From a virus (Duplodnaviria; Caudoviricetes), in IMG/VR virus record IMGVR_UViG_3300038673_000510, positions 1 to 64,000 of that record: a stretch of DNA of 64,000 nt; one strand, given 5' to 3'. Shown piece by piece: positions 5,372 to 48,114 of the stretch. The notes under the pieces were generated by a model. That model was not told the origin of the DNA. It worked only from the letters and a program-made list of their open reading frames with translations, and did not search any database. Each line of letters opens with the position of its first letter. Position 1 is the stretch's first letter. Both the position numbers and the translations under genes were made by a program.

Positions 5372-5950
5372 ATGACAATAACAACACTATTAGATTATTT
5401 AACCGAATCAGCTTTTGCTCATCCATTAGTTCGACAGGCACAAGATTTTGCCGAGAAAAAGCACGAAGGCCAAATGCGTAAAGATGGAACACCATATATA
5501 ACACATCCAAAACGAGTAGCAAAACATGTATACAAAAATAAAGACTCGCATCAACTTCCAAGCTTAATGGCTGCGGCATATTTGCATGATACAAAAGAAG
5601 ATTGTAATGTAGAAATTTCAGAAATCCGCGAACGATTTGGTGACTTGGTAGCATCATTAGTTGAAGAATTAACAACAGATGAAGAAGAAAAAGTAAAATT
5701 AGGTAAAACTTCTTATTTAACAAAAAAAATGCTTAAGATGTCTGATTGGGGATTAGTAATAAAATTGTGTGATAGATTAGATAATGTTTCAGATTTACAT
5801 ACCTCTGCTCCCGAATTTAGAGAGAAATATGTAAAAGAAACAAATGATATAATACGTGCATTAAGAAAGGATAGACGCCTTACCAGAACACAAATTAAAC
5901 TCATCAATAAAATTCAGAAAAAAATTTATAAACTTGAAGATAAACAATGA
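5372..5950 (+). CDS. RelA/SpoT-like HD domain small alarmone hydrolase (MESH1-like)
   Basis: RKDGTPYITHP, AAYLHDTKED, VEELT, VIKLCDRLDN motifs. Confidence 0.9.
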   Translation: MTITTLLDYLTESAFAHPLVRQAQDFAEKKHEGQMRKDGTPYITHPKRVAKHVYKNKDSHQLPSLMAAAYLHDTKEDCNVEISEIRERFGDLVASLVEELTTDEEEKVKLGKTSYLTKKMLKMSDWGLVIKLCDRLDNVSDLHTSAPEFREKYVKETNDIIRALRKDRRLTRTQIKLINKIQKKIYKLEDKQ

Positions 5951-6471
5951 ATCTTAAACAATATTTAGAAAACACAAATTCAAAAAAACTTATTATCATG
6001 CGTGGACTTCCAGGATCAGGTAAAAGTTATACAGCTAAACAACTTGGAGGGTATGTTTTTTCTACTGACGATGAATTCATGATTAATGGAAACTATGAAT
6101 TCGACGGAGCAAAATTAATTCGAGCTCATAAGAATACACAAGAAAAAGTACTGCAAGCTTTTAAAAAAGGTCTTTCTCCTATTATATTAGATAATACTAA
6201 TGTTACTTATGATGATATGAAATATTATGTATTACTGGCTGAGCAGTATGATTATAATATTGAGTTTAAAGAAAGTACTGCAGATTGGTGGACATTAACT
6301 AAAGATTCTACACCAGAAGAAAAAGAAAAATTAGCAGATATTTTGGCAAAAAAGAATGAACATGGCGTGCCAAAAGATAATATAATAAAGATGATAAATA
6401 GATGGAAACATTACGATTCATCACGACATCAAGAATTTATTGATAAGATCAAAAGCAGCAAAGGATTTTAA
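5947..6471 (+). CDS. AAA_33/N4BP2-like P-loop polynucleotide kinase
   Basis: IIMRGLPGSGKS, STDD, IILDNTN, NEHGVP. Confidence 0.85.
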   Translation: MNLKQYLENTNSKKLIIMRGLPGSGKSYTAKQLGGYVFSTDDEFMINGNYEFDGAKLIRAHKNTQEKVLQAFKKGLSPIILDNTNVTYDDMKYYVLLAEQYDYNIEFKESTADWWTLTKDSTPEEKEKLADILAKKNEHGVPKDNIIKMINRWKHYDSSRHQEFIDKIKSSKGF

Positions 6472-9313: not shown

Positions 9314-9385
9314 TGTATAGTATGCCAATTGGATGAGCAGCGGCTTGAAGGCCGTGGAATGAAGGTTCGAGTCCTCCCTATACAA
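9314..9385 (+). tRNA. tRNA-Phe(GAA)-like, 6-nt anticodon loop as sequenced
   Basis: TGTATAG/CTATACA acceptor; GCGGC-TTGAAG-GCCGT; TTCGAGT. Confidence 0.6.
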
Positions 9386-9440: not shown

Positions 9441-9986
9441 ATGATATGTGAAAATTGTGGAATAGAACATAATGGTTCTTATGGTAGTGGAAGATTTTGT
9501 TCACAAAAGTGTGCGAGGGGATTTAGTACTAAATTTAATAGAAAAGAAACAAGTAAAAAGGTTTCATTAAAATTAAGTGGTGGTAAACAAAAAAATAAAT
9601 GCTTATATTGTGATACTATAGTAAAGAAAAATAGACATAAATTTTGTGGAAGAGAATGTGCTTTTAAATATAAAAAAGAGCAATATATAAGAAATTTAGA
9701 ACACAAGCAAGTATTTTCTTCACAAGGAAACGCAAGAACATATTTACTTTATAAAAATGGTAATAAGTGTGAAATTTGTGGAACAGAAGTATGGAATGGA
9801 AAGCCAGTTCCACTTGTAATGGATCATATTGATGGTAACTCTGATAATCATTCTTTTAATAATTGCCGATTAATTTGTAGAAATTGTGACGGACAATTAG
9901 ATACTTATTCTGGTAGAAATATTGGAAAAGGTAGAAAAACAAAAAGAATGATTAAGTTTAAAAAATATAATGGAGAATTAGTTTAA
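9441..9986 (+). CDS. HNH homing endonuclease with Zn-finger repeats
   Basis: CENC..GSGRFCS..C; CEICG, MDHIDGNSDN, CRNCD. Confidence 0.9.
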   Translation: MICENCGIEHNGSYGSGRFCSQKCARGFSTKFNRKETSKKVSLKLSGGKQKNKCLYCDTIVKKNRHKFCGRECAFKYKKEQYIRNLEHKQVFSSQGNARTYLLYKNGNKCEICGTEVWNGKPVPLVMDHIDGNSDNHSFNNCRLICRNCDGQLDTYSGRNIGKGRKTKRMIKFKKYNGELV

Positions 9987-10042
9987 TAGTAAAACGATAG
10001 CCTGTCACGTTATTGTCAGGGGAGCATAACCCCTATTCTCCG
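9972..10042 (+). tRNA. tRNA-Asp(GTC), atypical T-loop AGCATAA
   Basis: GGAGAAT/ATTCTCC; ATAGC-CTGTCAC-GTTAT. Confidence 0.85.
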
Positions 10043-10580: not shown

Positions 10581-10630
10581 TATAAGGGTTGACAAAAATA
10601 AAAATATATACTATAATAATAGTATAAGTA
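10581..10630 (+). promoter_or_regulatory. strong sigma70 early promoter
   Basis: TTGACA 10589, TATAAT 10612. Confidence 0.9.
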
Positions 10631-10663
10631 ACAAAAAAGAAATGTAATATGGAAGTAATTTTC

Positions 10664-10737
10664 GGCGTTATCGTTCAATTGGTTAGGACACCGCCGTGTT
10701 GAGGCTGGAGATTGAGGTTCAAGTCCTTGTGATTCCG
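10664..10737 (+). tRNA. atypical tRNA-Asn(GTT) or pseudo-tRNA
   Basis: D and T arms normal; CCGCC-GTGTTGA-GGCTGG with bulge; mismatched acceptor. Confidence 0.55.
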
Positions 10738-10752
10738 ATAGTAGTAAATTAT

Positions 10753-10825
10753 AGCCCGTTGGCGCAGTGGTTAGCGCATCTGACTTTGACTCAGATATTC
10801 AGTGGTTCAAATCCACTACGGGCCG
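10753..10825 (+). tRNA. tRNA-Gln(TTG)
   Basis: TCTGA-CTTTGAC-TCAGA; unpaired 1:72, G73. Confidence 0.9.
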
Positions 10826-10971
10826 CATGGAGATAATATGAATATTAAGAAATGGTTATGGAATTATATTGATCGACAAATTCAAAAAGCAATGGAAGAA
10901 GGATTACGAAATGCAAGACCAACGGCGTCAACAAAATATAACATTCTGTAATAATAAATGAAAATAAATAA

Positions 10972-11196
10972 AGAATTGGTGCAGCAAACTTACAAAAAAT
11001 TTATTGGAAAATTTTAAAATCAATTCTGTTTTATTAATAAAGTACTTAATAGTAAGGGATGATTACAGCAAAATTAACCATTTGACCCTTAATCAAAAAA
11101 CAACATATCATCCTGTCGCAAATTAAAGACAAAGAATCGTTTCCGCAAACTTAAAAGAATACAACTGTTAATTGTAAAAATCTAAAAGCGATTCTG
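10972..11196 (+). ncRNA. three tandem structured RNA units (closing stem, C(A/C)GCAAA, anticodon-like hairpin, CTG)
   Basis: Units 10972-11028, 11055-11115, 11133-11196 with covarying closing stems. Confidence 0.7.
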
Positions 11197-11222
11197 AATT
11201 AATTATAAAAAAGGAAAAAACA

Positions 11223-12626
11223 ATGAACGGATTAGTTAGAGCAATCAACTCAAATGAAAGAACTGAAAATGGAATGGTAACAAATGCTTCTTCTCTGAGT
11301 GCATGTGTTGATCTTTTTTTCACTGCTGGCGCAAAAAGAGGAAAAGATATTATACCAAATTTTTCAAAGGCTATGATTGAAAATCCTGAAGTTGCTACTC
11401 GTATTGCATTATGGGCACGTGATGTTCGTGGTGGTGCAGGAGAACGTCAGATTTTTAGAGATATTCTGAAGTATCTGATTGAAAATACCTCGCAGGCTCG
11501 TGTTGAATCTGTTGCACGTAAAATACCTGAGCTTGGGAGATGGGACGATCTTTTTGTTCTAATGGACACTCCAATGGAACATATCGTATATGATATTCTC
11601 GCAGAAGGAATCACTAATCCAGATACTTGTGGACTTGTTTGTAAGTGGCTGCCTCGTAAAGGTCCAATTGCTAATAAACTAAGAAAATGGATGAAGTGTT
11701 CTCCAAAAGAATATAGACAGTTTCTTGTAGCAAACACAAAAGTTGTTGAACAGTCTATGTGTGCAAAAGAATGGTCAGATATTAAGTATGCGAGCATTCC
11801 ATCACTTGCGCACTCAAGATATATGAAAGCTTTCTGGAGAAATGATGCAGAAAGATATGGTGCTTATGTTGAATCACTGAAGAAAGGTGAAACAAAAATC
11901 AATGCCAGTGCAGTATATCCTTATGATATTACTAAGGCTCTAAAGTATGGTGATAAGCATGTAGCCAATGAGCAGTGGAAAGCACTTCCTGATTATTGTG
12001 CTGATAGCAAAGAAAGAATTATTCCTATAGTAGATGTAAGTGGTTCAATGTGTTTACCAGCTGGTGGTAATAAGAATGTACGTTGTCTTGACGTTGCTCT
12101 TTCACTGGGACTATATCTGTCTGAAAGACTAAAGGGTGAATTCAACAATTACTTTATTACATTTTCAGATAATCCACAGCTTGTTCATGTAACTGGTACT
12201 CTTTCAAACAGACTTGAACAGATGGAACAGTCAAACTGGGGAATGAGTACAAATCTTGAATCTGTATTTAAGTTAATTCTTAGTTCGGCGCTAAAGAATA
12301 ATGTATCAGCAGACGAAATGCCAACTGTGCTTTTAATTCTTTCTGATATGGAATTTAATCGTTGTTGTGGTGATCCAAGTGATAGCGCAATGCGAATGAT
12401 TCAGAAGAAATATGAAGCAGCTGGATATGTTGTTCCTAAAGTTGTGTTTTGGAATATTCAGTCTCGTAGTAATAAGAATGTTCCAGTAGAATATAATGCA
12501 AAAGGAACGGCACTTGTTTCTGGATTCTCTCCTTCTATTATGACTTCTATACTTAAGAATGTAGAGAATCTTACACCAGAACGTATTATGTTTGAAACTA
12601 TCAACAACGATAGATATAACTTTTAA
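11223..12626 (+). CDS. TROVE/Ro60-like protein with vWA domain (DUF2828 type)
   Basis: RTENG, WARDVRGGAGER, GRWDDL, KWLPR, MIDAS DVSGSM, ILSDMEF, FWN, VSGFSP. Confidence 0.9.
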   Translation: MNGLVRAINSNERTENGMVTNASSLSACVDLFFTAGAKRGKDIIPNFSKAMIENPEVATRIALWARDVRGGAGERQIFRDILKYLIENTSQARVESVARKIPELGRWDDLFVLMDTPMEHIVYDILAEGITNPDTCGLVCKWLPRKGPIANKLRKWMKCSPKEYRQFLVANTKVVEQSMCAKEWSDIKYASIPSLAHSRYMKAFWRNDAERYGAYVESLKKGETKINASAVYPYDITKALKYGDKHVANEQWKALPDYCADSKERIIPIVDVSGSMCLPAGGNKNVRCLDVALSLGLYLSERLKGEFNNYFITFSDNPQLVHVTGTLSNRLEQMEQSNWGMSTNLESVFKLILSSALKNNVSADEMPTVLLILSDMEFNRCCGDPSDSAMRMIQKKYEAAGYVVPKVVFWNIQSRSNKNVPVEYNAKGTALVSGFSPSIMTSILKNVENLTPERIMFETINNDRYNF

Positions 12627-12632
12627 AAATAA

Positions 12633-12798
12633 AGAATACTTTCAGCAAACCATAAAAACACTACAATTATGGTGAGTCTCCGGTGCAAGTTACTGTTGAT
12701 ATTTGCAGTAACGTAACCGGAGAGCTGTATTCCGAAGATACAGTAAACAAAAAATAAATATCTTGGCGTATTACCAATCTAAAAATACAATGATTCTG
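12633..12798 (+). ncRNA. longer fourth structured RNA unit downstream of TROVE gene
   Basis: AGAATACTTTCAGCAAAC start, ATTCTG end, several internal hairpins. Confidence 0.6.
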
Positions 12799-12817
12799 TT
12801 TTTTAAAAGTAACTTAC

Positions 12818-12880
12818 AGGGGATTAGTAGAATAGTAGTCTCCAAAACTGAAGACGAGGGAGCGTTACCTTCATCCCCTG
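12818..12880 (+). tRNA. tRNA-Trp(CCA) lacking most of the D-arm; T-loop AGCGTTA
   Basis: AGGGGAT/ATCCCCT, TAGT-CTCCAAA-ACTG, G73; only 63 nt. Confidence 0.7.
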
Positions 12881-12945
12881 CATTGCATCCTTATTTTGAA
12901 CCTTTAGCGTATAATAAAATATACATACAAAATGAGGTTCAAAAT

Positions 12946-13506
12946 ATGAAATGTGAATATTGTAATAAAGAGCACGATGGTGCTTATGCAAGTGGAAGAT
13001 TTTGTTCGAAAGAATGTGCAAGAGGATTTTCTTCACGTGAAAAACGAAAAGAAATAAATATTAAGGTTAGTAAAACTTTAACAAAAAATAAAAAATGGTC
13101 ATTAAAACAACTTGAACCTAAGTCATGTTTAAATTGTGGGGCAACAATTAAAAATGCTCGTATTTATTGTAGTAATCAATGTCAACAAGATTATAGAAAA
13201 AAACAATATACTTTATCGGTTGAAAAAAATGGAAAATTTCCAAATCTTACTTCTGACTCAGGTGCTCGTGTAAGATTAGTAAAAAGATATTTAATAGAAA
13301 AAAATGGTCATAAATGTTCTATATGCGGTGGAACAAAATGGTTTAATAACTTAATGCCATTATGGGTCGATCATATTGATGGTCAAGGCGATAATTGGGA
13401 AATAAGTAATATAAGATTAGTATGTCCTAATTGTGACTTTTTTTCTTCTACTTATTGTGGTAGAAATAAAGGTAAAGGTCGTCGTAATCCATATAAGCGT
13501 CTTTAG
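12946..13506 (+). CDS. HNH homing endonuclease with Zn-finger repeats
   Basis: MKCEYC..SGRFCSKEC, CSICG, VDHIDGQGDN, CPNCD; GAGG RBS. Confidence 0.9.
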   Translation: MKCEYCNKEHDGAYASGRFCSKECARGFSSREKRKEINIKVSKTLTKNKKWSLKQLEPKSCLNCGATIKNARIYCSNQCQQDYRKKQYTLSVEKNGKFPNLTSDSGARVRLVKRYLIEKNGHKCSICGGTKWFNNLMPLWVDHIDGQGDNWEISNIRLVCPNCDFFSSTYCGRNKGKGRRNPYKRL

Positions 13507-13568
13507 CTCAGAAGCAGAGCACATCCCTCATAAGGATTAGGTGATAGGGGCAGTACCTATAAGACGCA
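13497..13568 (+). tRNA. tRNA-Met/Ile2(CAT), T-loop GGCAGTA
   Basis: GCGTCTT/AAGACGC; ATCC-CTCATAA-GGAT. Confidence 0.85.
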
Positions 13569-14621: not shown

Positions 14622-14944
14622 GGGTACGAAAGGTTTCGATTGTATTAGTGATTTATAATAAGCATGCAGTGTAGAGTAGACACTATAAAGAACTCAAATA
14701 ATTTAAATGCAAACGATTTTACACCTGCAAGGATGGCTGCTTAAGCCACTTGCTCAGAGTCTAAGAGTACTTTGTTAAATAAACTCTTTTGTTGTAAATA
14801 GTCTGTCATTCCTATTCAAAGAATGTCTGGTGGAGACAAACAAAGTTCGAAAAAAGATGTAAGAGTGGTTTACTATAAAACCTAAGCATGTAGAAAGTTA
14901 TAAGTTAGTAATATAAGACGCGGGTTCGAATCCCGCCGTATCCA
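14622..14944 (+). ncRNA. ssrA: tmRNA; tag (A)NDFTPARMAA at 14709-14744
   Basis: GGGTACG/CGTATCC acceptor with G3:U70, GGTTTCGA, GCATG helix, PK1, resume GCA after ATTTAAAT, GACGCGGGTTCGAATCCCGC T arm. Confidence 0.95.
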
Positions 14945-15889: not shown

Positions 15890-17527
15890 ATGACAACAAA
15901 AATTTTATTTGTAGGCGATATTCATGGAGAATTTCGTCGATTTAGTGATTTAATAAATTTACAAGAACCGGATATTACAATTCAACTTGGAGACAATGCT
16001 TACTTTTGGTTAAATGACGTTGCTTATGGGAAAATTAATCCAGGAAAAAGTAAGGTATATCTACTTCCAGGGAATCATGAATGTGTTTGTAAAGATACAG
16101 AATTGTTAACTAAAAATGGTTGGGTAAAAAGTAGTAATATTTCTAAAAGCGATGAAATAGCTCAATTCAATAAAGAAACCGGGGAAATCTCTTTTACTTT
16201 TCCAAAAAGACTTGAGTGTCATTATGAAAAGCAACTCGTTGAAATTGAATCAAGCAAAATTAAGCAAAGAATCACATTTAATCATCATCTTGTTATTAAT
16301 AATAAATTTGAATATGCGAAAGATATATTAGATAAAGATATATTTCAGAATGATTTTAGATTATATGGTTCATTAAACAACATTGATTATGATATATCTG
16401 ATGATATGTTAAGATTGCTTGTGTGGGTAATATGTGACAGTACAATAGTTAAAACATCAGAAAACAAAAAAAGAATACAGTTTAAACTTAGCAAAGAAAG
16501 AAAAATAAAAACACTAATACAAATACTTGAAAAATTAAACATTGAATATACTTTTAGAAAAGCTACAAAAAGTATAAGTAACATATTGCAACCATATTAT
16601 ATACGTATATATGGAGAACATGCGCGAAATATTTTTAATATACTAAATGAGAAAAAACAATTTCCAGGTTGGATAAAAAATATTAGTGAAAGACAATTAC
16701 AAATTGTTTTAAATGAATTATTAATTACTGATGGCTCTCGTAATGGAGATACCTTAACTTTTTCTACTACCAATAAATACGACGCTGATATCATTCATGA
16801 GTTATGTATTATGAATAAAAGAGTGTGTCATATTGTAGAACAACAGCCTAATAAAAAATCATTTGGTAAAAAGATATTTTATAGATTGCACATTTATTTA
16901 AAAGAACGAAAGCCGATTAATAATTTAAAAATAAAATCAAAGGTTATAGAATACAATGATTATGTATATTGTGTGACAATGCCTCTCGGAACAATTATTA
17001 CAAGATTAAATGGTAAAAGTAACTTTACTGGCAATTGTTGGGATACTTTTGAAGATGTTATTGGCAGAAGAGGATTAGTTCCAATTGAAGTAGAGCAAAA
17101 TTTATTTTTATGTCCAATTGGTTCTTCAATAAATTTAGATGGATATAAATTTCTTTTTCTTGGCGGAGCAGATAGTATAGATAAAGATCGAAGGATTATT
17201 GGTCATTCTTGGTTTAGACAGGAGTTGTTTAATGAAGGTGACTATGAATTTGTTTCAAAGAACATAAAGGAAGCAGATATAATTTGTTCTCACACAAGCC
17301 CAAAAGCATTTGACGAAGGAATAATAAAATATCTTCCCATATATGAGAAGTTAAAAGATCCTTCAAGAGAATGGTTGAATTATATTTTGCATGATTTAAA
17401 ACCTAAAGCTTGGTTCTTTGGACACTGGCATCAACACATGACTGGAGAGTACAATGGTACTCAATGGGAATGTTTAGATCATATAAGAAGTTATACACCA
17501 TTTTTTAATGTCTTTGAGATTTCTTAA
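15890..17527 (+). CDS. calcineurin-like metallophosphoesterase containing an intein
   Basis: GDIHG, LGD, GNHE, SHTSP, FGHWH. Confidence 0.9.
   Translation: MTTKILFVGDIHGEFRRFSDLINLQEPDITIQLGDNAYFWLNDVAYGKINPGKSKVYLLPGNHECVCKDTELLTKNGWVKSSNISKSDEIAQFNKETGEISFTFPKRLECHYEKQLVEIESSKIKQRITFNHHLVINNKFEYAKDILDKDIFQNDFRLYGSLNNIDYDISDDMLRLLVWVICDSTIVKTSENKKRIQFKLSKERKIKTLIQILEKLNIEYTFRKATKSISNILQPYYIRIYGEHARNIFNILNEKKQFPGWIKNISERQLQIVLNELLITDGSRNGDTLTFSTTNKYDADIIHELCIMNKRVCHIVEQQPNKKSFGKKIFYRLHIYLKERKPINNLKIKSKVIEYNDYVYCVTMPLGTIITRLNGKSNFTGNCWDTFEDVIGRRGLVPIEVEQNLFLCPIGSSINLDGYKFLFLGGADSIDKDRRIIGHSWFRQELFNEGDYEFVSKNIKEADIICSHTSPKAFDEGIIKYLPIYEKLKDPSREWLNYILHDLKPKAWFFGHWHQHMTGEYNGTQWECLDHIRSYTPFFNVFEIS
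16082..17035 (+). mobile_element. intein with LAGLIDADG endonuclease (318 aa)
   Basis: GNHE|CVCKDTELLT ... TFNH ... VYCVT...TGN|CWD. Confidence 0.9.
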
Positions 17528-22058: not shown

Positions 22059-22715
22059 ATGGAAAGTAAAAAGTATTATACTATTTATAAAATTACGTGT
22101 ACTATAAATAATAAGATTTATATTGGTCAACATTCAACTAATGATTTAAATGATACTTATTTTGGTTCTGGTGCTTTACTAAAAGAAGATGTTGATTTGT
22201 TTGGTAAAGAAAAATTTATAAAAGAAATTTTATATGTTTTTGACACTTGGGAGGAATGTGATAAAAAAGAAAATCAAATTGTAAATGCTGATTTTGTAGC
22301 AAGAGATGATACATATAATTGCAGGCATGGCGGTTATAGTATAAATGAAAATAAAAAATTTAATTATTCAAAAGCTGGCAAATTGGGGCAAGAGAAACTT
22401 AAACAAAGATTCAAAGATGATCCTGAGTTAAGAAAAGAAATAAATGAAAAATTAAGAATAAAGTCATCGTTAAATAATAATGCCAGATTTTTAAAAGAAA
22501 ATAGTTATGATTGGACAGGAAAAAAACACAAAGAAGAATCAAAGAAAAAAATAGGAAAAGCGAATGCAATTCATCAACAAGGTACAGGTAATTCTAATTT
22601 TGGGAATTGCTGGATTTATAATAAAGATTTAAAAGAAAATAAATTGATAAGTAAAACTGATTTAGATATATGGCTTAAACAAAATTGGATCAAAGGTCGT
22701 AAAATGTCTTTTTAA
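22059..22715 (+). CDS. Seg-like GIY-YIG homing endonuclease
   Basis: TIYKITC..KIYIGQH, YFGSG, TYN, WIKGR. Confidence 0.9.
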   Translation: MESKKYYTIYKITCTINNKIYIGQHSTNDLNDTYFGSGALLKEDVDLFGKEKFIKEILYVFDTWEECDKKENQIVNADFVARDDTYNCRHGGYSINENKKFNYSKAGKLGQEKLKQRFKDDPELRKEINEKLRIKSSLNNNARFLKENSYDWTGKKHKEESKKKIGKANAIHQQGTGNSNFGNCWIYNKDLKENKLISKTDLDIWLKQNWIKGRKMSF

Positions 22716-23783: not shown

Positions 23784-24356
23784 ATGAAATGTGAAAATTG
23801 CAATATAAAACATAATGGTACTTATGGCAGTGGCAGGTTTTGTTCTGAAAAATGTGCGCATAGTTATCCATGGAAAATAAAAAGAAAAGAAATGTGTAAA
23901 AATATTTCTTTAGCAATGGGTGGAACAGGTGATCCCGGACAGGGTATAACAAAAATATGTAAACACTGTAATACAACATTTACATCAAAACAATGTAAAC
24001 AATCATTTTGTTCAACTTTATGTTCTAATTTGTATAAAACAAAAGAAACACAAAAAAAATTAGATTATATACAAAATTTTGCTGGTTATGGAATTAATAC
24101 AATAAAAAAATATTTAATTAGTAGAAAAAAACATAAGTGTGAAATTTGTGGAACAGAAGTATGGAATGGAAAACCAGTTCCACTTGTAATGGATCATATT
24201 GATGGCAATTCTGATAATTGGGATGTTACTAATTTACGTTTGGTCTGTAGAAATTGTGATGGTCAATTAGATACTTTTTGTGGTAAAAATAAAGGTTATG
24301 GAGCATCAAGAAGTAAACGTAAAATGAAAAAATATTATGATGGACAAACATTTTAG
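23784..24356 (+). CDS. HNH homing endonuclease with Zn-finger repeats
   Basis: Paralog of 9441; MDHIDGNSDN, CRNCD. Confidence 0.9.
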   Translation: MKCENCNIKHNGTYGSGRFCSEKCAHSYPWKIKRKEMCKNISLAMGGTGDPGQGITKICKHCNTTFTSKQCKQSFCSTLCSNLYKTKETQKKLDYIQNFAGYGINTIKKYLISRKKHKCEICGTEVWNGKPVPLVMDHIDGNSDNWDVTNLRLVCRNCDGQLDTFCGKNKGYGASRSKRKMKKYYDGQTF

Positions 24357-24426
24357 GATAATTAGTTTAATGGTAAAACGATAAATTCTAAATTTATTTT
24401 TTGGGGTTCAATTCCCCAATTATCCA
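24356..24426 (+). tRNA. amber suppressor tRNA (CTA anticodon)
   Basis: GGATAAT/ATTATCC; ATAAA-TTCTAAA-TTTAT; TGGGG-TTCAATT-CCCCA; A73. Confidence 0.85.
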
Positions 24427-34204: not shown

Positions 34205-35539
34205 ATGAATACTGAAACTTTTCCATTTGTAGATGCTATTGAAGCAGAGTTGTTACCTGCGCTTATAAATAATCGTACTATGTGGGTTGATTTAAAAGAT
34301 CATATACTTCAACAATATTGGACCAAAAAAGAGCGCGCAATTATATATAAGCTCTTTAATGTGTTCTTTGAAAGATATAAGAATTTTCCAACAAGAGCAC
34401 AAGCACTTGATATTGCAACACGCAAAAATTATGGCGACAAAGTACTTTCTGAAATTGAATTAGTTTATAATAAAGTTACTGGAGATACACTTCCAGAAGT
34501 GCAACAATATGTATATGATGAAGCGCTTAACTTTATTAGAAACAATAAAATTAAAACAGCTCTTCTTGAATCAGTTGATCTTCTTGAAAAAAGAGATTTT
34601 CTTAATATTGAAAGTAAAATGAAAGATGCTGTTAACTGGAATCCGGATATCAAGCTTGGAACAGATATTCAAGATGTTGAAACTCGTTTCGCCGCATTAG
34701 AGAATCTTTCTAATAACATTATTCCTTCTCCTTGGAAAGTACTTAATATGCTTATTGGTGGAGGATTCTATGGAAAAGAATTAGCTTTATTCGCTGGAAC
34801 AAGTTCTGTAGGAAAATCAATTGCACTTGATAATATTGCATATCACGCTTGGGATCAAGGCTATAATGTTGTTATGATTACATTGGAACTTAGCGAAGTA
34901 AGAAAAGCACAAAGAATTGATTCATCTGCTGTGCGTATTCCATTGAACGAAGTTAAAGCAAGAAAAGATGATGTTATTAAATTTTTTGAAAATAAACGTA
35001 AGAACAATAAACTTTATATAAAAGAATTTCCAACAAGCAGTGTAAGTGCTAAAAATATTCTTAATTATTTATATCAGCTTGAATTATATAATGGACTTAA
35101 AATGAGAGGAGGTGGCAAACACGGACTCAATCTTCTTATTGTAGATTATCTTGAACTGATGCTACCAAATCAGAAAAAAGCCAACGAATATGAATCACAG
35201 GGAGCGGTTGGAGCAGAACTTCGTGGAATAGGACAAGAACTTGATATTCCAGTTGTTAGTGCATGTCTTGATCCTAATACAGAAGTAATTACTTTTAAGG
35301 GAAAAATAAAATTGTCTGAATTAAAAGTTGGTGATTTTATACGTTCAAAATCACAATATAATTTTGTACAGAAAATTCAAATTAATAAAAATACAAAAAA
35401 ATATAAAATTAAAACAAAATCAGGCAAAGAAATTATTTGTAGCGCTAATCATTTATTCCCTGTAGTAAATAAAAACGAAGAATTGTCTATAAATACAGGT
35501 TTAAAAATTGGTCAACAATTATATATCAAAGAGGTGTGA
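34205..35539 (+). CDS. replicative helicase (gp41/DnaB-like) N-part fused to split intein N-half (35264-35536)
   Basis: GTSSVGKS, TLELSE, IVDYLEL, IPVVSA|CLDPNTEV...CSANHLFP. Confidence 0.93.
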   Translation: MNTETFPFVDAIEAELLPALINNRTMWVDLKDHILQQYWTKKERAIIYKLFNVFFERYKNFPTRAQALDIATRKNYGDKVLSEIELVYNKVTGDTLPEVQQYVYDEALNFIRNNKIKTALLESVDLLEKRDFLNIESKMKDAVNWNPDIKLGTDIQDVETRFAALENLSNNIIPSPWKVLNMLIGGGFYGKELALFAGTSSVGKSIALDNIAYHAWDQGYNVVMITLELSEVRKAQRIDSSAVRIPLNEVKARKDDVIKFFENKRKNNKLYIKEFPTSSVSAKNILNYLYQLELYNGLKMRGGGKHGLNLLIVDYLELMLPNQKKANEYESQGAVGAELRGIGQELDIPVVSACLDPNTEVITFKGKIKLSELKVGDFIRSKSQYNFVQKIQINKNTKKYKIKTKSGKEIICSANHLFPVVNKNEELSINTGLKIGQQLYIKEV

Positions 35540-45623: not shown

Positions 45624-46673
45624 ATGGAATTTAAATTGCAAGATTTTCTTGAATTGACAAAGATTAAAGAAGAAATTAGAATGAAAGAAGAAATTGTTAA
45701 TGGTGTTCGCGTTGGAATTTTTTCTTATATGGTTTCTATGCCCGATACTTTTGATTCGGATCTCGCAAAAGAATGTCGTGGTATTACATTTAATCTTGAA
45801 ACTGGTGAATGTATCTGCCGTCCATTCCCTAAATTTTTTAACGTCAATGAAAAACCAGGTTGGCTTGAACATGAATTAGATTGGAAAAATATTACTTATG
45901 TTGGTGAAAAGTTTGATGGTTCAATGATTACTCCAGTTCTTGTTAATGGAAAAGTTTTTCTGAAAACCAAAAAAAGTTTTTATTCTGATGTTGCAATTCA
46001 GGCAACTCAATATATGAATAAGAACAATATTGTGTTTGACTTCAAGAAAGATGAAACATTACTTCTGGAATATATCGGACCTGATAATAAAATCGTTATT
46101 GATTATCCACAAGAAAAATTTGTATCTCTTGCTGTACGTAATATCAATTCTGGTAAAATTACCTTCACAACTAATATTTTTGATGAATGTAAAAATTTAA
46201 TTCAAGATGGATTGTTTATTGAATATGTTAGAACATTAGTTGGTAAAGAAGGTTTTGTATGTTATGATGCAACTAATGATAAACTATTCAAAGTAAAATC
46301 TCAATGGTATATGGATCTTCATAGATTGATTGATAAAATTTCAGGACGTGATGTTTTAGTAATGATCCTGGATGAAACTATTGACGACTATTCGTCTGCA
46401 ATTGCTGAAAACAAACGTAAATATAATGCAATCGCAGAACTTACAAAAGAAGTTAATCAGTTTAAACTTCAGTTAATCAAACGAGTTGAAAAAACATATA
46501 TGGAAAATTGTGCACTATCTAAAAAAGAATTTGCACAACACATATTTGCTAATGGTCATAAAGATATTAGCGGAATATTGTTTGCATTATATGACCAGAA
46601 AGATTATATGATTCAGATCAATGGTTTTGTAAACAATGTTTATAGAGAAAAATTAAGTGGGGTTATTTTTTAA
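45624..46673 (+). CDS. RNA ligase 1 (T4 Rnl1-like)
   Basis: ECRGITF, PFPKFFN, EKFDGS, EGFV, KVKSQWY. Confidence 0.92.
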   Translation: MEFKLQDFLELTKIKEEIRMKEEIVNGVRVGIFSYMVSMPDTFDSDLAKECRGITFNLETGECICRPFPKFFNVNEKPGWLEHELDWKNITYVGEKFDGSMITPVLVNGKVFLKTKKSFYSDVAIQATQYMNKNNIVFDFKKDETLLLEYIGPDNKIVIDYPQEKFVSLAVRNINSGKITFTTNIFDECKNLIQDGLFIEYVRTLVGKEGFVCYDATNDKLFKVKSQWYMDLHRLIDKISGRDVLVMILDETIDDYSSAIAENKRKYNAIAELTKEVNQFKLQLIKRVEKTYMENCALSKKEFAQHIFANGHKDISGILFALYDQKDYMIQINGFVNNVYREKLSGVIF

Positions 46674-46698
46674 CCCCACTATTTTTATGAGACATGAT

Positions 46699-46968
46699 AT
46701 GAAGAAAGTAACTATTGATTTTAATTGTAATGAAACTGTTGAAATTACATTAAACGAAAATGGCGCAAAAATTTATAATGATTATTATAAACAATTTGAT
46801 ACTTATTTTAATGAAAATCGACGTCATAAAAATATTCAGCCAGGAGTGCGCAGTATGCAATTATGGGATGTGATGAATATTTTTGGGCCACATTTAGGTC
46901 TTGGTAAAACTGCGCCATTTGAAAAATTTGAAATTAGATTTACAGTTGAGGTACCCGATGAGAGTTAA
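46699..46968 (+). CDS. hypothetical protein
   Basis: QLWDVMNIFG phage motif. Confidence 0.6.
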   Translation: MKKVTIDFNCNETVEITLNENGAKIYNDYYKQFDTYFNENRRHKNIQPGVRSMQLWDVMNIFGPHLGLGKTAPFEKFEIRFTVEVPDES

Positions 46969-47202
46969 AGCACTCATTCAATCTGGAGAAATTCCGGCGG
47001 GATCAATTATTGACGTTGAAAAAGAAGTATATGGAAATTTTTTTGGAATTTGGCGTTCACACTTCGGAACATTCAATGTAAGTATTTCTATTAAAGATTG
47101 TGAAATTATTAAAGAATAGTGGATTGATATATGGCCCAATGATTGAAGTAATTAATGATATAAATTTTATTGAAATAAAGTAAGTAGGTAGGTAAGTAAT
47201 TA

Positions 47203-48114
47203 ATGATTAAAGTAATTTTTGCGCGTGGGCTTATTGCGTCAGGAAAATCCACGTGGGCCAAAGAATTTGTAGCAAATAATCAGAATTATAAAAGAGTATC
47301 TCGTGATGATTTTCGTCATATGACCAACTCTTATATTTATACTGATGAAAATGAAAAAATGGTAACTAAGTTATGGGATGTTACTGTTGCCAGTCTTATT
47401 GCACAAGGATACAATCTTGTTATTGATGAGCAGAATCTTAATAGTAAGTATCTTGAAGATCATAAGAGTTTTATTAAAACTGTTTGTGACCATGAAAACA
47501 AGACTGTAGAATTTTTAGTTAAAGATTTTCCAATTACTCTCGGCGAAGCAATTACCAGAGATAAACAAAGAGATTTTTCAATTGGTGAAAAAATTATAAA
47601 AAAGACTTGGCATAAGTATGAACTTACTTTGCGTAAGATGCTTGAAGATTCACGCAAAACAAAAGTTTATCCTTTTGATCCTAATCTTCCATATTGTATA
47701 ATTTGCGATATTGATGGGACTCTTAGTCGTCCAAATGACCGAGGAATTTTTGATTATTCAAAAGTTGATAATGATTATGTTATAGAACAAGTTGCTTTTA
47801 TGATTAAGAAACTTAAAGAAAGTACAAATATGATTATTGTCATGATGTCTGGTCGTGAGGAACAAGCTCGTGAAAAAACTATTAAATGGTTTGAACAAGC
47901 TAAGATTCCTTATGACTTCTTTTACATGAGAAAAGACAAGGATTCTCGTGCTGATAATATTGTTAAACTTGAATTGTTTGATAATCATATTAGAAACAAA
48001 TTTAATCCTTTCTGTGTATTCGACGATAGAATCCAGGTTCTTAAAATGTGGCAAGATCTTGGAATTTTTACTTTTGATGTTCGTCAAGACGCAGAAGGAA
48101 AAAATATTTTTTAA
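47203..48114 (+). CDS. pseT: polynucleotide 5'-kinase/3'-phosphatase
   Basis: GLIASGKST, SRDDFR; HAD DIDGTL, SGR, FDDR. Confidence 0.92.
   Translation: MIKVIFARGLIASGKSTWAKEFVANNQNYKRVSRDDFRHMTNSYIYTDENEKMVTKLWDVTVASLIAQGYNLVIDEQNLNSKYLEDHKSFIKTVCDHENKTVEFLVKDFPITLGEAITRDKQRDFSIGEKIIKKTWHKYELTLRKMLEDSRKTKVYPFDPNLPYCIICDIDGTLSRPNDRGIFDYSKVDNDYVIEQVAFMIKKLKESTNMIIVMMSGREEQAREKTIKWFEQAKIPYDFFYMRKDKDSRADNIVKLELFDNHIRNKFNPFCVFDDRIQVLKMWQDLGIFTFDVRQDAEGKNIF

What the first reader, a model, noticed from the sequence alone, without database searches (positions are those of the whole stretch)
10972..12798. Ro60/TROVE-like gene flanked by repeated small RNAs that display tRNA anticodon stem-loop mimics
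Seen: three upstream units and one downstream unit share a layout of closing stem, C(A/C)GCAAA, A-rich linker, hairpin, linker, complementary stem and CTG. The closing stems differ in sequence but keep pairing (AGAATTGGT/ATCAATTCT; GGGATGAT/ATCATCCT; AGAATCGTTT/AAGCGATTCT). Unit 2 carries TTTGA-CCCTTAA-TCAAA (tRNA-Lys CTT-like arm). Unit 3 carries TACAA-CTGTTAA-TTGTA (tRNA-Asn GTT arm, 5 bp plus 7-nt loop). Unit 1 has an imperfect hairpin containing TTGGAAA. No tRNA-Lys and only a degenerate tRNA-Asn were found in the window. Established: Ro60/Rsr proteins bind Y RNAs encoded next to them, and anticodon nucleases such as PrrC cut tRNA-Lys. Inference: a phage RNP of Y-like RNAs presenting anticodon decoys or sensors against host tRNA-cleaving defences.
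Basis: partly seen in the sequence, partly recalled or inferred. Interest (0 to 1): 0.85.

Follow-up and report, generated by a model that had tools for sequence, protein, structure and literature searches.

The report
Ro60-like phage protein's partner RNAs
A large phage encodes a ring-shaped protein that folds like the RNA-surveillance protein Ro60, flanked by four small RNA genes that share one conserved "handle"; two of them display hairpins built like tRNA anticodon arms, and the same protein-RNA pairing recurs in very different phages but appears in no RNA catalogue or paper I could find.

Summary
Four same-strand units flank the 467-aa DUF2828/DUF7788 gene (11223-12626): U1 10972-11028, U2 11056-11115, U3 11133-11196, and U4, which ends at 12734 rather than 12798. 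Each has a covarying closing stem, an unpaired C(A/C)GCAA starting at nucleotide 11, variable cargo and a C-N-G end.

A covariance model built only from other phages recovers all four. It gives 91 hits in 87 sources. All lie on the gene's strand, and 81 lie within 500 nt of a DUF2828 gene, in phages of Proteobacteria and Firmicutes.

The protein model's 12 best PDB matches are all Ro60. Pfam's TROVE model, the Y-RNA motif GNCGAA and Rfam's Y RNA models do not match. I read this as a separate branch of the Ro60/Y-RNA design, absent from Rfam 15 and from the papers searched. Its handle resembles Dictyostelium Class I RNAs but scores below Rfam's threshold.

The anticodon-arm claim is partly right:
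- U3 carries a canonical Asn-type arm.
- U2 carries a Lys-type arm with C in place of U33.
- U1 and U4 carry none.
- Family-wide, only about 1 unit in 15 carries such an arm, though that is far above chance.

The decoy role is untested. The phage does encode the Rnl1 and PNKP tRNA-repair pair. This scan has noted the same pairing before on other DNA.

The parts
10589..10617 (+). Promoter-like site (TTGACA, 17 nt, TATAAT; 12 of 12) upstream of tRNA-Asn, tRNA-Gln, U1-U3 and the gene. It is the likely start of a shared transcript.
   Evidence: Consensus scan. No terminator-like site was found on the + strand as far as 13200.
10663..10826 (+). tRNA-Asn(GUU), low-scoring with an odd anticodon arm (10663-10738), and tRNA-Gln(UUG) (10753-10826), directly upstream of the units.
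   Evidence: ARAGORN; Rfam gives 36.4 and 64.5 bits; sequences.
10972..11028 (+). U1, 57 nt. A 9-bp closing stem (AGAAUUGGU/AUCAAUUCU), GCAGCAAAC, A/U-rich cargo with no convincing hairpin, and a free 3' G.
   Evidence: R1 gives 51.9 bits. The independent model R2 gives 40.9 bits, E 5e-7.
11056..11115 (+). U2, 60 nt. Closing stem GGGAUGAU/AUCAUCCU, then UUACAGCAAA. The cargo hairpin UUUGA-CCCUUAA-UCAAA is 13 of 15 identical to the E. coli tRNA-Lys(UUU) anticodon arm, with C at position 33.
   Evidence: R2 gives 39.8 bits, E 1e-6. Rfam RF01414 gives 26.6 bits.
11133..11196 (+). U3, 64 nt. A 10-bp closing stem (AGAAUCGUUU/AAGCGAUUCU), then CCGCAAAC. The cargo hairpin UACAA-CUGUUAA-UUGUA has 5 bp and a canonical 7-nt Asn(GUU)-type loop. 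The unit ends 26 nt before the gene's ATG.
   Evidence: R2 gives 47.5 bits, E 1e-8. Aeromonas phage LAh_6 has a unit with the same closing stem.
11223..12626 (+). Gene for a 467-aa Ro60-like protein: an N-terminal helical-repeat ring (Pfam DUF2828) plus a C-terminal vWA domain (DUF7788) with an intact MIDAS motif (D271-x-S273-x-S275, T343, D375).
   Evidence: Pfam. PHROG 850 'RNA-binding protein'. Invariant columns. AlphaFold2 model with pLDDT 81.8. The 12 best Foldseek PDB matches are all Ro60, over the full length, with TM 0.48-0.63.
12633..12734 (+). U4, 102 nt, starting 7 nt after the stop codon. Closing stem GAAUAC/GUAUUC, UUUCAGCAAAC, a cargo of two hairpins (12649-12673 and 12677-12723), and the end C-C-G.
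   Evidence: R2 gives 33.7 bits, E 4e-5. Folds.
12735..12798 (+). It may hold a degenerate minimal unit (AAGAUA-CAGUAAAC-...-UAUCUU-GG, about 12735-12767). Its status is uncertain.
   Evidence: Read by eye. R1 gives only 10.8 bits, E 5, for 12736-12798.
12818..12880 (+). tRNA-like pseudo-element with a 7-bp acceptor-type stem and the same A-G...C-U-G ends as the units, but without CAGCAA.
   Evidence: Rfam tRNA model gives 25.5 bits, below the gathering score of 29. ARAGORN does not call it.
45624..48114 (+). Context only; not shown to be part of the system. T4-type RNA ligase 1 (45624-46673) and polynucleotide kinase-phosphatase (47203-48114). In T4 this enzyme pair repairs tRNA-Lys cut by the PrrC anticodon nuclease (established knowledge).
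   Evidence: Pfam RNA_lig_T4_1 at 3.4e-16; HAD_PNKP at 7.3e-39 plus AAA_33.

Best explanation
U1-U4 are genes for small stable RNAs that are the partner RNAs of the Ro60-like DUF2828 protein encoded between them. They are the counterpart of Y RNAs in a separate branch of the Ro60 design.

**Shown**
- The protein has the Ro60 fold, a helical ring plus a vWA domain with a MIDAS motif.
- The RNAs share a 'handle': a 6-10-bp stem that joins the two ends and covaries, an unpaired (U)UNC(A/C)GCAA at a fixed distance from the 5' end, and a single free 3' G after the stem.
- This handle sits on the gene's strand, next to the gene, in very different phages.

**Inferred**
- The units are transcribed with the neighbouring tRNAs from the promoter at 10589 and cut out of that transcript. 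The acceptor-stem-like ends may make them substrates of tRNA-processing enzymes.
- The protein binds the handle, as Ro60 binds the terminal helix of Y RNAs.
- The variable cargo is what differs between particles. It presents a tRNA part to proteins that recognise tRNA: a Lys-like anticodon arm in U2, an Asn-like one in U3, and T-loop or YrlA-like modules in relatives.
- The purpose is most likely tRNA/RNA surveillance, or protection of the translation apparatus during infection. The units lie among tRNA and tmRNA genes, in a phage that also carries Rnl1 and PNKP.

Whether the anticodon arms act as baits for host anticodon nucleases is a further, untested step.
For: - **Fold:** the 12 best PDB matches are all Ro60 (Thermus phage phiLo, Deinococcus, Xenopus, human), E 3e-9 to 2e-6, over the full length.
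- **MIDAS residues** are invariant across 28 homologues.
- **Closing helix:** 98.5% of cells are paired, all 7 pairs show compensatory changes, and the covariation score is 0.88 against 0.20 in shuffles (0 of 500) and at most 0.20 when the partners are slid (for the 11 seed units).
- **Recurrence:** model R2, built without the window, recovers all four units. It gives 91 hits at E <= 0.01, all 91 on the gene's strand. Of these, 81 lie within 500 nt of the gene, and 50 of 80 IMG/VR loci have at least one.
- **Whole-record scans** of four phages (Aeromonas LAh_6, the Felix O1-like LMP33, Listeria List-36, Staphylococcus 6ec) give 14 hits, 12 of them within 1.3 kb of the gene.
- **Fixed position:** the motif starts at nucleotide 11 in 74 of 78 distinct units. 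Nucleotide 1 covaries with the penultimate nucleotide (AG..CUG, UG..CAG, GG..CCG).
- **tRNA-part cargo:** 5 of 37 seven-nucleotide loops are CU-NNN-AA against 0.9% expected, and 2 more are T-loops. There is a partial YrlA hit beside a unit in L078.
- **Lys arm:** it is conserved between the window's U2 and an LAh_6 unit, although the two proteins are only 47% identical. It matches E. coli lysT at 13 and 15 of 15 positions.
- **Precedent:** Y RNAs lie within 4 kb of Ro60 on the same strand and mimic tRNA (PMC4201824). Phage phiLo Ro60 binds two RNAs encoded upstream of its gene (PMC12135203).
Against: - There is no expression, processing or binding evidence of any kind. Everything rests on comparative genomics and analogy.
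- The single units do not fold better than shuffled sequence (z -1.3 to -1.7).
- The anticodon-like stems are marginal, with pair probabilities of 0.3-0.45.
- 30 of 80 related loci have no model hit within 3 kb.
- Some relatives (Vibrio phages nt-1 and K566) show only UACAGCAAA in the gene's leader. That fits a cis-regulatory site as well as it fits a free RNA.
- Pfam TROVE, the GNCGAA motif and the Rfam Y RNA models are all negative. The analogy to Ro60/Y RNA therefore rests on fold and gene arrangement, not on family membership.
Confidence: 0.68

Rival explanations
1. Anticodon-nuclease decoys. The RNAs, stabilised by the ring protein, present anticodon arms that soak up or misdirect host tRNA-cutting defence enzymes (PrrC/RloC-type, PARIS, colicin-E5-like and others), and so protect the tRNA pool.
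For: - U3 has a canonical Asn(GUU) loop.
- U2 has a Lys arm 13 of 15 identical to E. coli tRNA-Lys. Its only differences are at positions 33 and 34, next to the site that PrrC cuts (the PrrC site is from established knowledge).
- An LAh_6 unit carries an exact 15-nt Lys(UUU) arm.
- CU-NNN-AA loops are enriched.
- The phage lacks tRNA-Lys in its 117 kb, has an aberrant tRNA-Asn, and encodes Rnl1 plus PNKP.
- Phage tRNAs are known to counter tRNA-targeting defences (PMC10264068, PMC11555353).
Against: - Only about 7 of 78 distinct units carry such an arm, and U1 and U4 do not.
- Apart from the Lys arms, only the loops match real tRNAs, not the stems.
- The anticodons seen (Lys, Asn, Met, Leu) show no clear bias towards known nuclease targets.
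- The contig is only 63% complete, so the absence of tRNA-Lys is weak evidence.
- There is no functional evidence.
Confidence: 0.15
2. Cis-acting elements of the DUF2828 mRNA. The handles are binding sites through which the protein controls its own mRNA's translation or stability, and are not free RNAs.
For: - U3 ends 26 nt before the ATG, and U4 starts 7 nt after the stop codon.
- Minimal 33-37-nt handles lie 11-27 nt before the start codon in L024, L064, L085 and L087.
- Vibrio phages keep only UACAGCAAA in the leader.
Against: - In Felix O1-like phages the units lie 350-1200 nt downstream, between tRNA genes.
- LAh_6 has nine hits, including ones 4 kb and 40 kb away from the gene.
- Arrays of 3-8 units with different cargo are hard to explain as operators.
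- The two roles are not exclusive.
Confidence: 0.12
3. Processing spacers or decayed tRNA remnants of the tRNA operon, with no link to the protein.
For: The units sit inside tRNA clusters, have acceptor-stem-like ends, and sometimes carry tRNA parts.
Against: - The units follow the DUF2828 gene even where no tRNA gene is annotated within 5 kb (Bacillus PJN02) or where the nearest is 1.5 kb away (Staphylococcus 6ec).
- An unpaired motif conserved at a fixed position, beside a covarying stem, across phages of different host phyla indicates selection on the RNA itself.
Confidence: 0.05

Closest known systems
Ro60/Rsr with Y RNAs: bacterial and mycobacteriophage YrlA/YrlB (Chen et al. 2014, PMC4201824; Rfam RF02553) and Thermus phage phiLo Ro60 with Yrl1/Yrl2 (PMC12135203)
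   Same: - A ring-plus-vWA protein fold.
- RNA genes on the same strand, within a few hundred nucleotides of the protein gene.
- The two RNA ends are paired, with a short conserved motif beside the stem.
- The cargo imitates tRNA parts.
- The genes lie near RNA-repair genes.
   Different: - The protein belongs to Pfam DUF2828/DUF7788, not TROVE, and is 13-17% identical to solved Ro60 structures.
- The RNA motif is an unpaired CAGCAA, not GNCGAA(N)G or CGAA.
- No Rfam Y_RNA or YrlA hit falls in the window region.
- The cargo here is a bare anticodon-type arm, not a T-arm/D-arm domain.
- The units come in arrays of up to eight or more.
Dictyostelium Class I RNAs (Rfam RF01414; Kjellin et al. 2021, PMC7919456)
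   Same: - Size of 42-65 nt.
- A short covarying stem joins the 5' and 3' ends.
- A conserved unpaired motif lies right after the 5' arm: CCUUACAGCAA in Dictyostelium, UUACAGCAA in U2, and exactly CCUUACAGCAA in one LAh_6 unit.
- A variable A-rich remainder and a ...CUG end.
- RF01414 is the only Rfam family apart from tRNA and tmRNA that hits the units repeatedly: 26.6 bits here and 28-35 bits on six relatives.
   Different: - All scores fall below the gathering score of 41.5.
- Class I RNAs are eukaryotic genes with a DUSE promoter. They are reported as unique to Dictyostelia, and their known direct binder is an RRM protein (PMC7919456).
- I did not test whether dictyostelids encode DUF2828.
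Phage-encoded tRNAs that counter tRNA-targeting defences (van den Berg et al. 2023, PMC10264068; Azam et al. 2024, PMC11555353)
   Same: Both are encoded in phage tRNA clusters, and both centre on the anticodon loops that host nucleases attack.
   Different: Those are complete, functional tRNAs that replace cleaved ones. The units here are 57-64-nt RNAs with only an anticodon-type arm on a non-tRNA handle, so they cannot decode.

Membership tests
Ro60/Rsr (TROVE) proteins | Match to the Pfam TROVE domain | tested here: not met
   Pfam reports only DUF2828 (9.4e-29) and DUF7788 (4.7e-49). A profile search of PDB sequences hits phiLo Ro60 only weakly (E 5.7e-4), over residues 229-304, at the end of the helical part and the start of the vWA domain.
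Ro60/Rsr (TROVE) proteins | Ring of helical (HEAT-like) repeats closed by a C-terminal vWA domain | tested here: met
   AlphaFold2 model with pLDDT 81.8 and pTM 0.79. The 12 best Foldseek matches are all Ro60, with 490-560 aligned columns and TM 0.48-0.63.
Ro60/Rsr (TROVE) proteins | MIDAS metal site in the vWA domain | tested here: met
   D271, S273, S275, T343 and D375 are invariant in 28 homologues. They were identified as the MIDAS site by reading the sequence.
Ro60/Rsr (TROVE) proteins | Binds Y RNA or misfolded RNA | not testable with these tools
   Needs pull-down or gel-shift experiments.
Y RNAs of the YrlA/YrlB type | Encoded within 4 kb of the Ro60 gene on the same strand (criterion of PMC4201824) | tested here: met
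   U1-U4 lie 7-251 nt from the gene on the + strand. Family-wide, all 91 hits are on the gene's strand and 81 lie within 500 nt.
Y RNAs of the YrlA/YrlB type | 5' and 3' ends paired in a terminal stem | tested here: met
Y RNAs of the YrlA/YrlB type | Ro-binding motif GNCGAA(N)G | tested here: not met
   No G.CGAA occurs in any of the four units.
Y RNAs of the YrlA/YrlB type | Match to Rfam Y_RNA or YrlA | tested here: not met
   No such hit at E <= 10 in window 10800-13000. There is a partial YrlA hit (39.9 bits against a gathering score of 69) in relative L078 only.
Y RNAs of the YrlA/YrlB type | tRNA-like domain with T and D arms | tested here: not met
   The window's units carry at most an anticodon-type arm. 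T-loop hairpins occur in two relatives.
Dictyostelium Class I RNAs (RF01414) | Score at or above Rfam's gathering score (41.5 bits) | tested here: not met
   U2 scores 26.6 bits. The best relative scores 35.2 bits.
Dictyostelium Class I RNAs (RF01414) | 42-65 nt, a short terminal stem, and the 11-nt motif CCUUACAGCAA next to the 5' arm | tested here: inconclusive
   U1-U3 are 57-64 nt and have the stem. The motif matches at 9 of 11 positions in U2, and at about 6 of 11 in U1 and U3 (read by eye). U4 is 102 nt.
Dictyostelium Class I RNAs (RF01414) | Dictyostelid gene with an upstream DUSE promoter element | tested here: not met
   The contig is a virus record with phage genes such as terminase, DNA polymerase and tRNAs.
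tRNA anticodon stem-loop (as a mimic) | 5-bp stem, 7-nt loop, U at position 33, purine at position 37 | tested here: inconclusive
   U3 meets all four features (CUGUUAA). U2 fails U33 (CCCUUAA). U1 and U4 have no such arm. The stems are weak.
CAGCAA-handle RNAs next to DUF2828 genes (defined here by model R2, built from 69 units of other phages) | Significant match to R2 on the strand of, and next to, a DUF2828 gene | tested here: met
   U3 47.5, U1 40.9, U2 39.8 and U4 33.7 bits, with E 1e-8 to 4e-5.

The most novel reading that the evidence does not exclude
The anticodon-arm cargoes (Lys-like in U2, Asn-like in U3), held and stabilised by the Ro60-like ring, are baits that bind or jam host anticodon nucleases. 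That would be an RNA-protein anti-defence device of a new kind, working alongside the phage's Rnl1/PNKP repair pair. More broadly, the handle plus DUF2828 pairing would be an old particle type whose eukaryotic counterpart is the unexplained Class I RNAs of Dictyostelium.
Probability: 0.13. Interest if true: 0.9.

Novelty: new variant of a known kind. Interest (0 to 1): 0.72.

Why it matters
- DUF2828 is a very large protein family of unknown function. It occurs in 711 of about 50,700 phage records and also in plants and fungi.
- A conserved RNA partner would give the family a testable function.
- It would extend the Ro60/Y-RNA principle (a ring protein plus modular RNAs that imitate tRNA) to a second, sequence-unrelated branch. 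That branch is common in well-studied phages such as the Felix O1 group, Listeria P100-like and Staphylococcus phages.
- The anticodon-arm cargo ties the system to the growing field of tRNA-targeted phage defence.
- The resemblance of the handle to Dictyostelium Class I RNAs offers a concrete lead for RNAs whose mechanism has been open since 2004.

Tried and rejected
- **Rfam 15**, at gathering scores over the whole window and at E <= 10 over 10800-13000: no Y_RNA or YrlA, and no other family for the units except the sub-threshold RF01414.
- **Single-protein scan of IMG/VR:** it found no relative. A scan with a protein alignment was needed.
- **My loose stem-plus-GCAA script:** far too unspecific in 30% GC sequence, so I abandoned it for covariance models.
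- **Model R1:** it missed U4 because of its long cargo. R2 found it.
- **NCBIfam:** no match.
- **Protein atlas:** only viral DUF2828 clusters, with nothing on amoebae.
- **Search for long homologues:** it found plant and fungal DUF2828 proteins but no dictyostelid and no informative fusion.
- **Avesson et al. 2011,** which lists the four proteins associated with Class I RNA, is not held in the library.
- **Matching cargo arms to real tRNA anticodon arms:** only the Lys arms match in the stem. I therefore rejected the idea that the units are recent copies of tRNA genes.
- **Literature searches** on DUF2828, on TROVE with Y RNA and phage, and on Ro60 with phage and tRNA-like RNAs found no description of these RNAs.
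Full report
**Setting**

The window is the first 64 kb of a 116,958-bp IMG/VR virus record with 30% G+C, estimated 63% complete. It is a large phage.
- It encodes DNA polymerase III alpha, a DnaB-type helicase, primase, DNA ligase, a sigma factor, a terminase with an intein, and several homing endonucleases.
- It carries about 20 tRNA genes and a tmRNA.
- The finding lies inside the tRNA cluster.

**The observation**

On the + strand lie four units.
- U1 is 10972-11028, U2 is 11056-11115 and U3 is 11133-11196. All three are upstream of an ORF at 11223-12626. U4 starts 7 nt after its stop codon.
- Each begins with N-G and a 6-10-bp arm. C(A/C)GCAA follows, starting at nucleotide 11 in every unit. 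Then comes an A-rich variable part, the complementary arm, and one free G.
- As single sequences the units fold no better than shuffles (z -1.3 to -1.7). Folding energy alone would not establish them.

**Is it more than chance?**

Aeromonas phage LAh_6, whose homologous protein is 47% identical, has at least eight such units upstream of its gene. One has the very closing stem of U3.

I built model R1 from these eight plus U1-U3.
- In the window and in the whole contig, R1 found only U1-U3 at E up to about 1.
- In 80 IMG/VR loci fetched with a protein alignment, R1 gave 69 hits, all on the gene's strand.

I then built R2 from those 69 hits alone, with no window sequence.
- R2 recovers U1-U3 at E 1e-8 to 1e-6, and U4 as 12633-12734 at E 4e-5.
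- Over 87 sources R2 gives 91 hits at E <= 0.01. All 91 are on the gene's strand, 81 lie within 500 nt of the gene, and 50 of the 80 IMG/VR loci have at least one.
- Scans of four complete phage records (580 kb in all) give 14 hits, 12 of them within 1.3 kb of the gene.
- R2 also hits next to the gene in a Felix O1-like coliphage, Listeria phage List-36, Staphylococcus phage 6ec and Bacillus phage PJN02. It hits weakly in mycobacteriophage LeBron.

The closing helix is well supported.
- 98.5% of cells are paired.
- All seven pairs show compensatory changes.
- The covariation score is 0.88, against 0.20 in shuffles and at most 0.20 when the partners are slid.
- That alignment was fitted to the model. 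The independent MAFFT alignment of the 11 seed units shows the same pattern: 0.74 against 0.17.

Nucleotide 1 covaries with the penultimate nucleotide (AG..CUG, UG..CAG, GG..CCG), and the last G stays free. This looks like an acceptor stem with a discriminator base. That resemblance is my inference.

**The protein**

- Pfam gives DUF2828 plus DUF7788, and PHROG 850 is named 'RNA-binding protein'.
- An AlphaFold2 model built from 28 homologues (pLDDT 81.8) has Ro60 structures as its 12 best PDB matches: phage phiLo, Deinococcus Rsr, Xenopus and human. All are full-length matches with TM 0.48-0.63 at 13-17% identity.
- The MIDAS residues are invariant.
- The 'Ro60-like' label is therefore right for the fold. 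It is not right for the Pfam TROVE family.
- The protein occurs in 711 phage records, and in plants and fungi.

**What the RNAs are not**

- They lack the GNCGAA motif of YrlA-type Y RNAs (PMC4201824).
- They give no Rfam Y_RNA or YrlA hit.
- I found no paper that links DUF2828 to an RNA.

The only Rfam family that hits them repeatedly is RF01414, the Dictyostelium Class I RNAs. It scores 26.6 bits on U2 and 28-35 bits on six relatives, always below the gathering score of 41.5. The shared features are specific: size, a covarying terminal stem, UUACAGCAA right after the 5' arm, and a CUG end. Class I RNAs are reported as unique to Dictyostelia (PMC7919456). This is a resemblance, not membership. 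I did not test whether dictyostelids have DUF2828.

**The anticodon-arm claim**

- U3's cargo is a 5-bp stem with the loop CUGUUAA, a canonical Asn-type anticodon loop.
- U2's hairpin UUUGA-CCCUUAA-UCAAA is 13 of 15 identical to the anticodon arm of E. coli tRNA-Lys(UUU). The homologous LAh_6 unit is 15 of 15. U2 has C at the universally conserved position U33.
- U1 has no convincing arm. U4 carries two unrelated hairpins.

Across 78 distinct units there are 37 hairpins with 7-nt loops.
- Five are CU-NNN-AA (Asn, Lys, Met twice, Leu), against 0.9% expected from base composition. That is a binomial P of about 2.5e-5 by my calculation.
- Two more are T-loops.
- In an earlier test, 10 of 68 units had a U33/R37 arm, against 3.0 +/- 1.6 in dinucleotide shuffles (0 of 300).

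Tendency to display tRNA parts is therefore real, but only a minority of units do it. Outside the Lys arms only the loops, not the stems, match real tRNAs. The stems are also thermodynamically weak.

**Context**

- The contig has no tRNA-Lys, though it is incomplete.
- Its tRNA-Asn has an aberrant anticodon arm.
- It encodes T4-type RNA ligase 1 and PNKP. From established knowledge, this pair repairs PrrC-cut tRNA-Lys in T4.
- tmRNA genes lie near the DUF2828 gene here and in three relatives. Listeria List-36 has RtcB 1.3 kb downstream.
- In Salmonella the Ro60/Y RNA genes share an operon with RtcB that responds to damaged tRNA (PMC7790460).

All of this fits a role in tRNA/RNA surveillance during infection. 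None of it proves such a role.

**Verdict**

- The most likely reading (about 0.68) is a Ro60-like particle whose partner RNAs share the CAGCAA handle and differ in a tRNA-imitating cargo.
- A purely cis-regulatory role (0.12) is supported by minimal handles in the gene's leader in several phages. It cannot explain arrays scattered among tRNA genes.
- The decoy reading (0.15) is coherent but untested, and it cannot be the family's general function.
- Earlier notes of this scan describe the same pairing in more than 200 other genomes. I reached the reading before consulting them and tested it independently here.

Noticed in passing
window 24356-24426: A high-scoring tRNA (69.9 bits) with anticodon CUA, that is an amber suppressor (ARAGORN labels it 'Pyl'). 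It might mean that TAG is read through or recoded in some phage genes.
   Followed up: no
window 9314-9385: A tRNA-like gene with a 6-nt anticodon loop (UUGAAG), for which ARAGORN reports a 2-nt anticodon. It could be a Phe(GAA)-type tRNA with a shortened loop. Rfam gives 32.2 bits.
   Followed up: no
window 14622-14944: A phage-encoded tmRNA with the tag ANDFTPARMAA, 2 kb downstream of the DUF2828 gene. tmRNA genes also lie within 3 kb of the DUF2828 gene in relatives L059, L077 and L078.
   Followed up: partly
window 9972-10042 and 13497-13568: Two tRNAs found by Rfam but missed by ARAGORN. Read by eye they are Asp(GUC) and Met(CAU). The second overlaps the end of ORF 12763-13506.
   Followed up: partly
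window 15890-17527, 34205-35539, 60078-63056 (-), 166-921, 22059-22715: Many selfish elements: a LAGLIDADG insert in a metallophosphatase, intein signatures in the DnaB-type helicase and in the large terminase (992 aa), and free-standing GIY-YIG endonucleases.
   Followed up: no
L006 (Aeromonas phage LAh_6, NC_048774.1) 1110-1194 and 1293-1372: Two units are nested inside perfect 20-bp extended stems that reach beyond the unit ends. These may be precursor helices for a double-strand-specific processing enzyme. Several units overlap annotated 'hypothetical' or 'membrane protein' ORFs and the annotated start of the DUF2828 gene, so those annotations are probably wrong.
   Followed up: partly
L078 1952-2054 and 2691-2761; L066 5154-5289: Long units whose cargo holds T-arm-like (GUGAG-UUCGAGU-CUCAC) and D-arm-like segments in permuted order. 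A partial YrlA match (39.9 bits) sits beside another unit. These are a bridge between this family and the tRNA-like domain of YrlA.
   Followed up: partly
L005 and L007 (Vibrio phages K566 and nt-1), about 1470-1490: These T4-like phages have no complete unit near the gene. They keep UUAUACAGCAAA in the gene's 5' leader, and a second ACAGCAAAC lies inside the first 50 codons.
   Followed up: no
window 5372-6471: Adjacent genes for an HD-domain (HD_4) protein and an AAA_33 kinase-like protein, upstream of the tRNA cluster. They may be further nucleotide- or RNA-end-processing enzymes.
   Followed up: no
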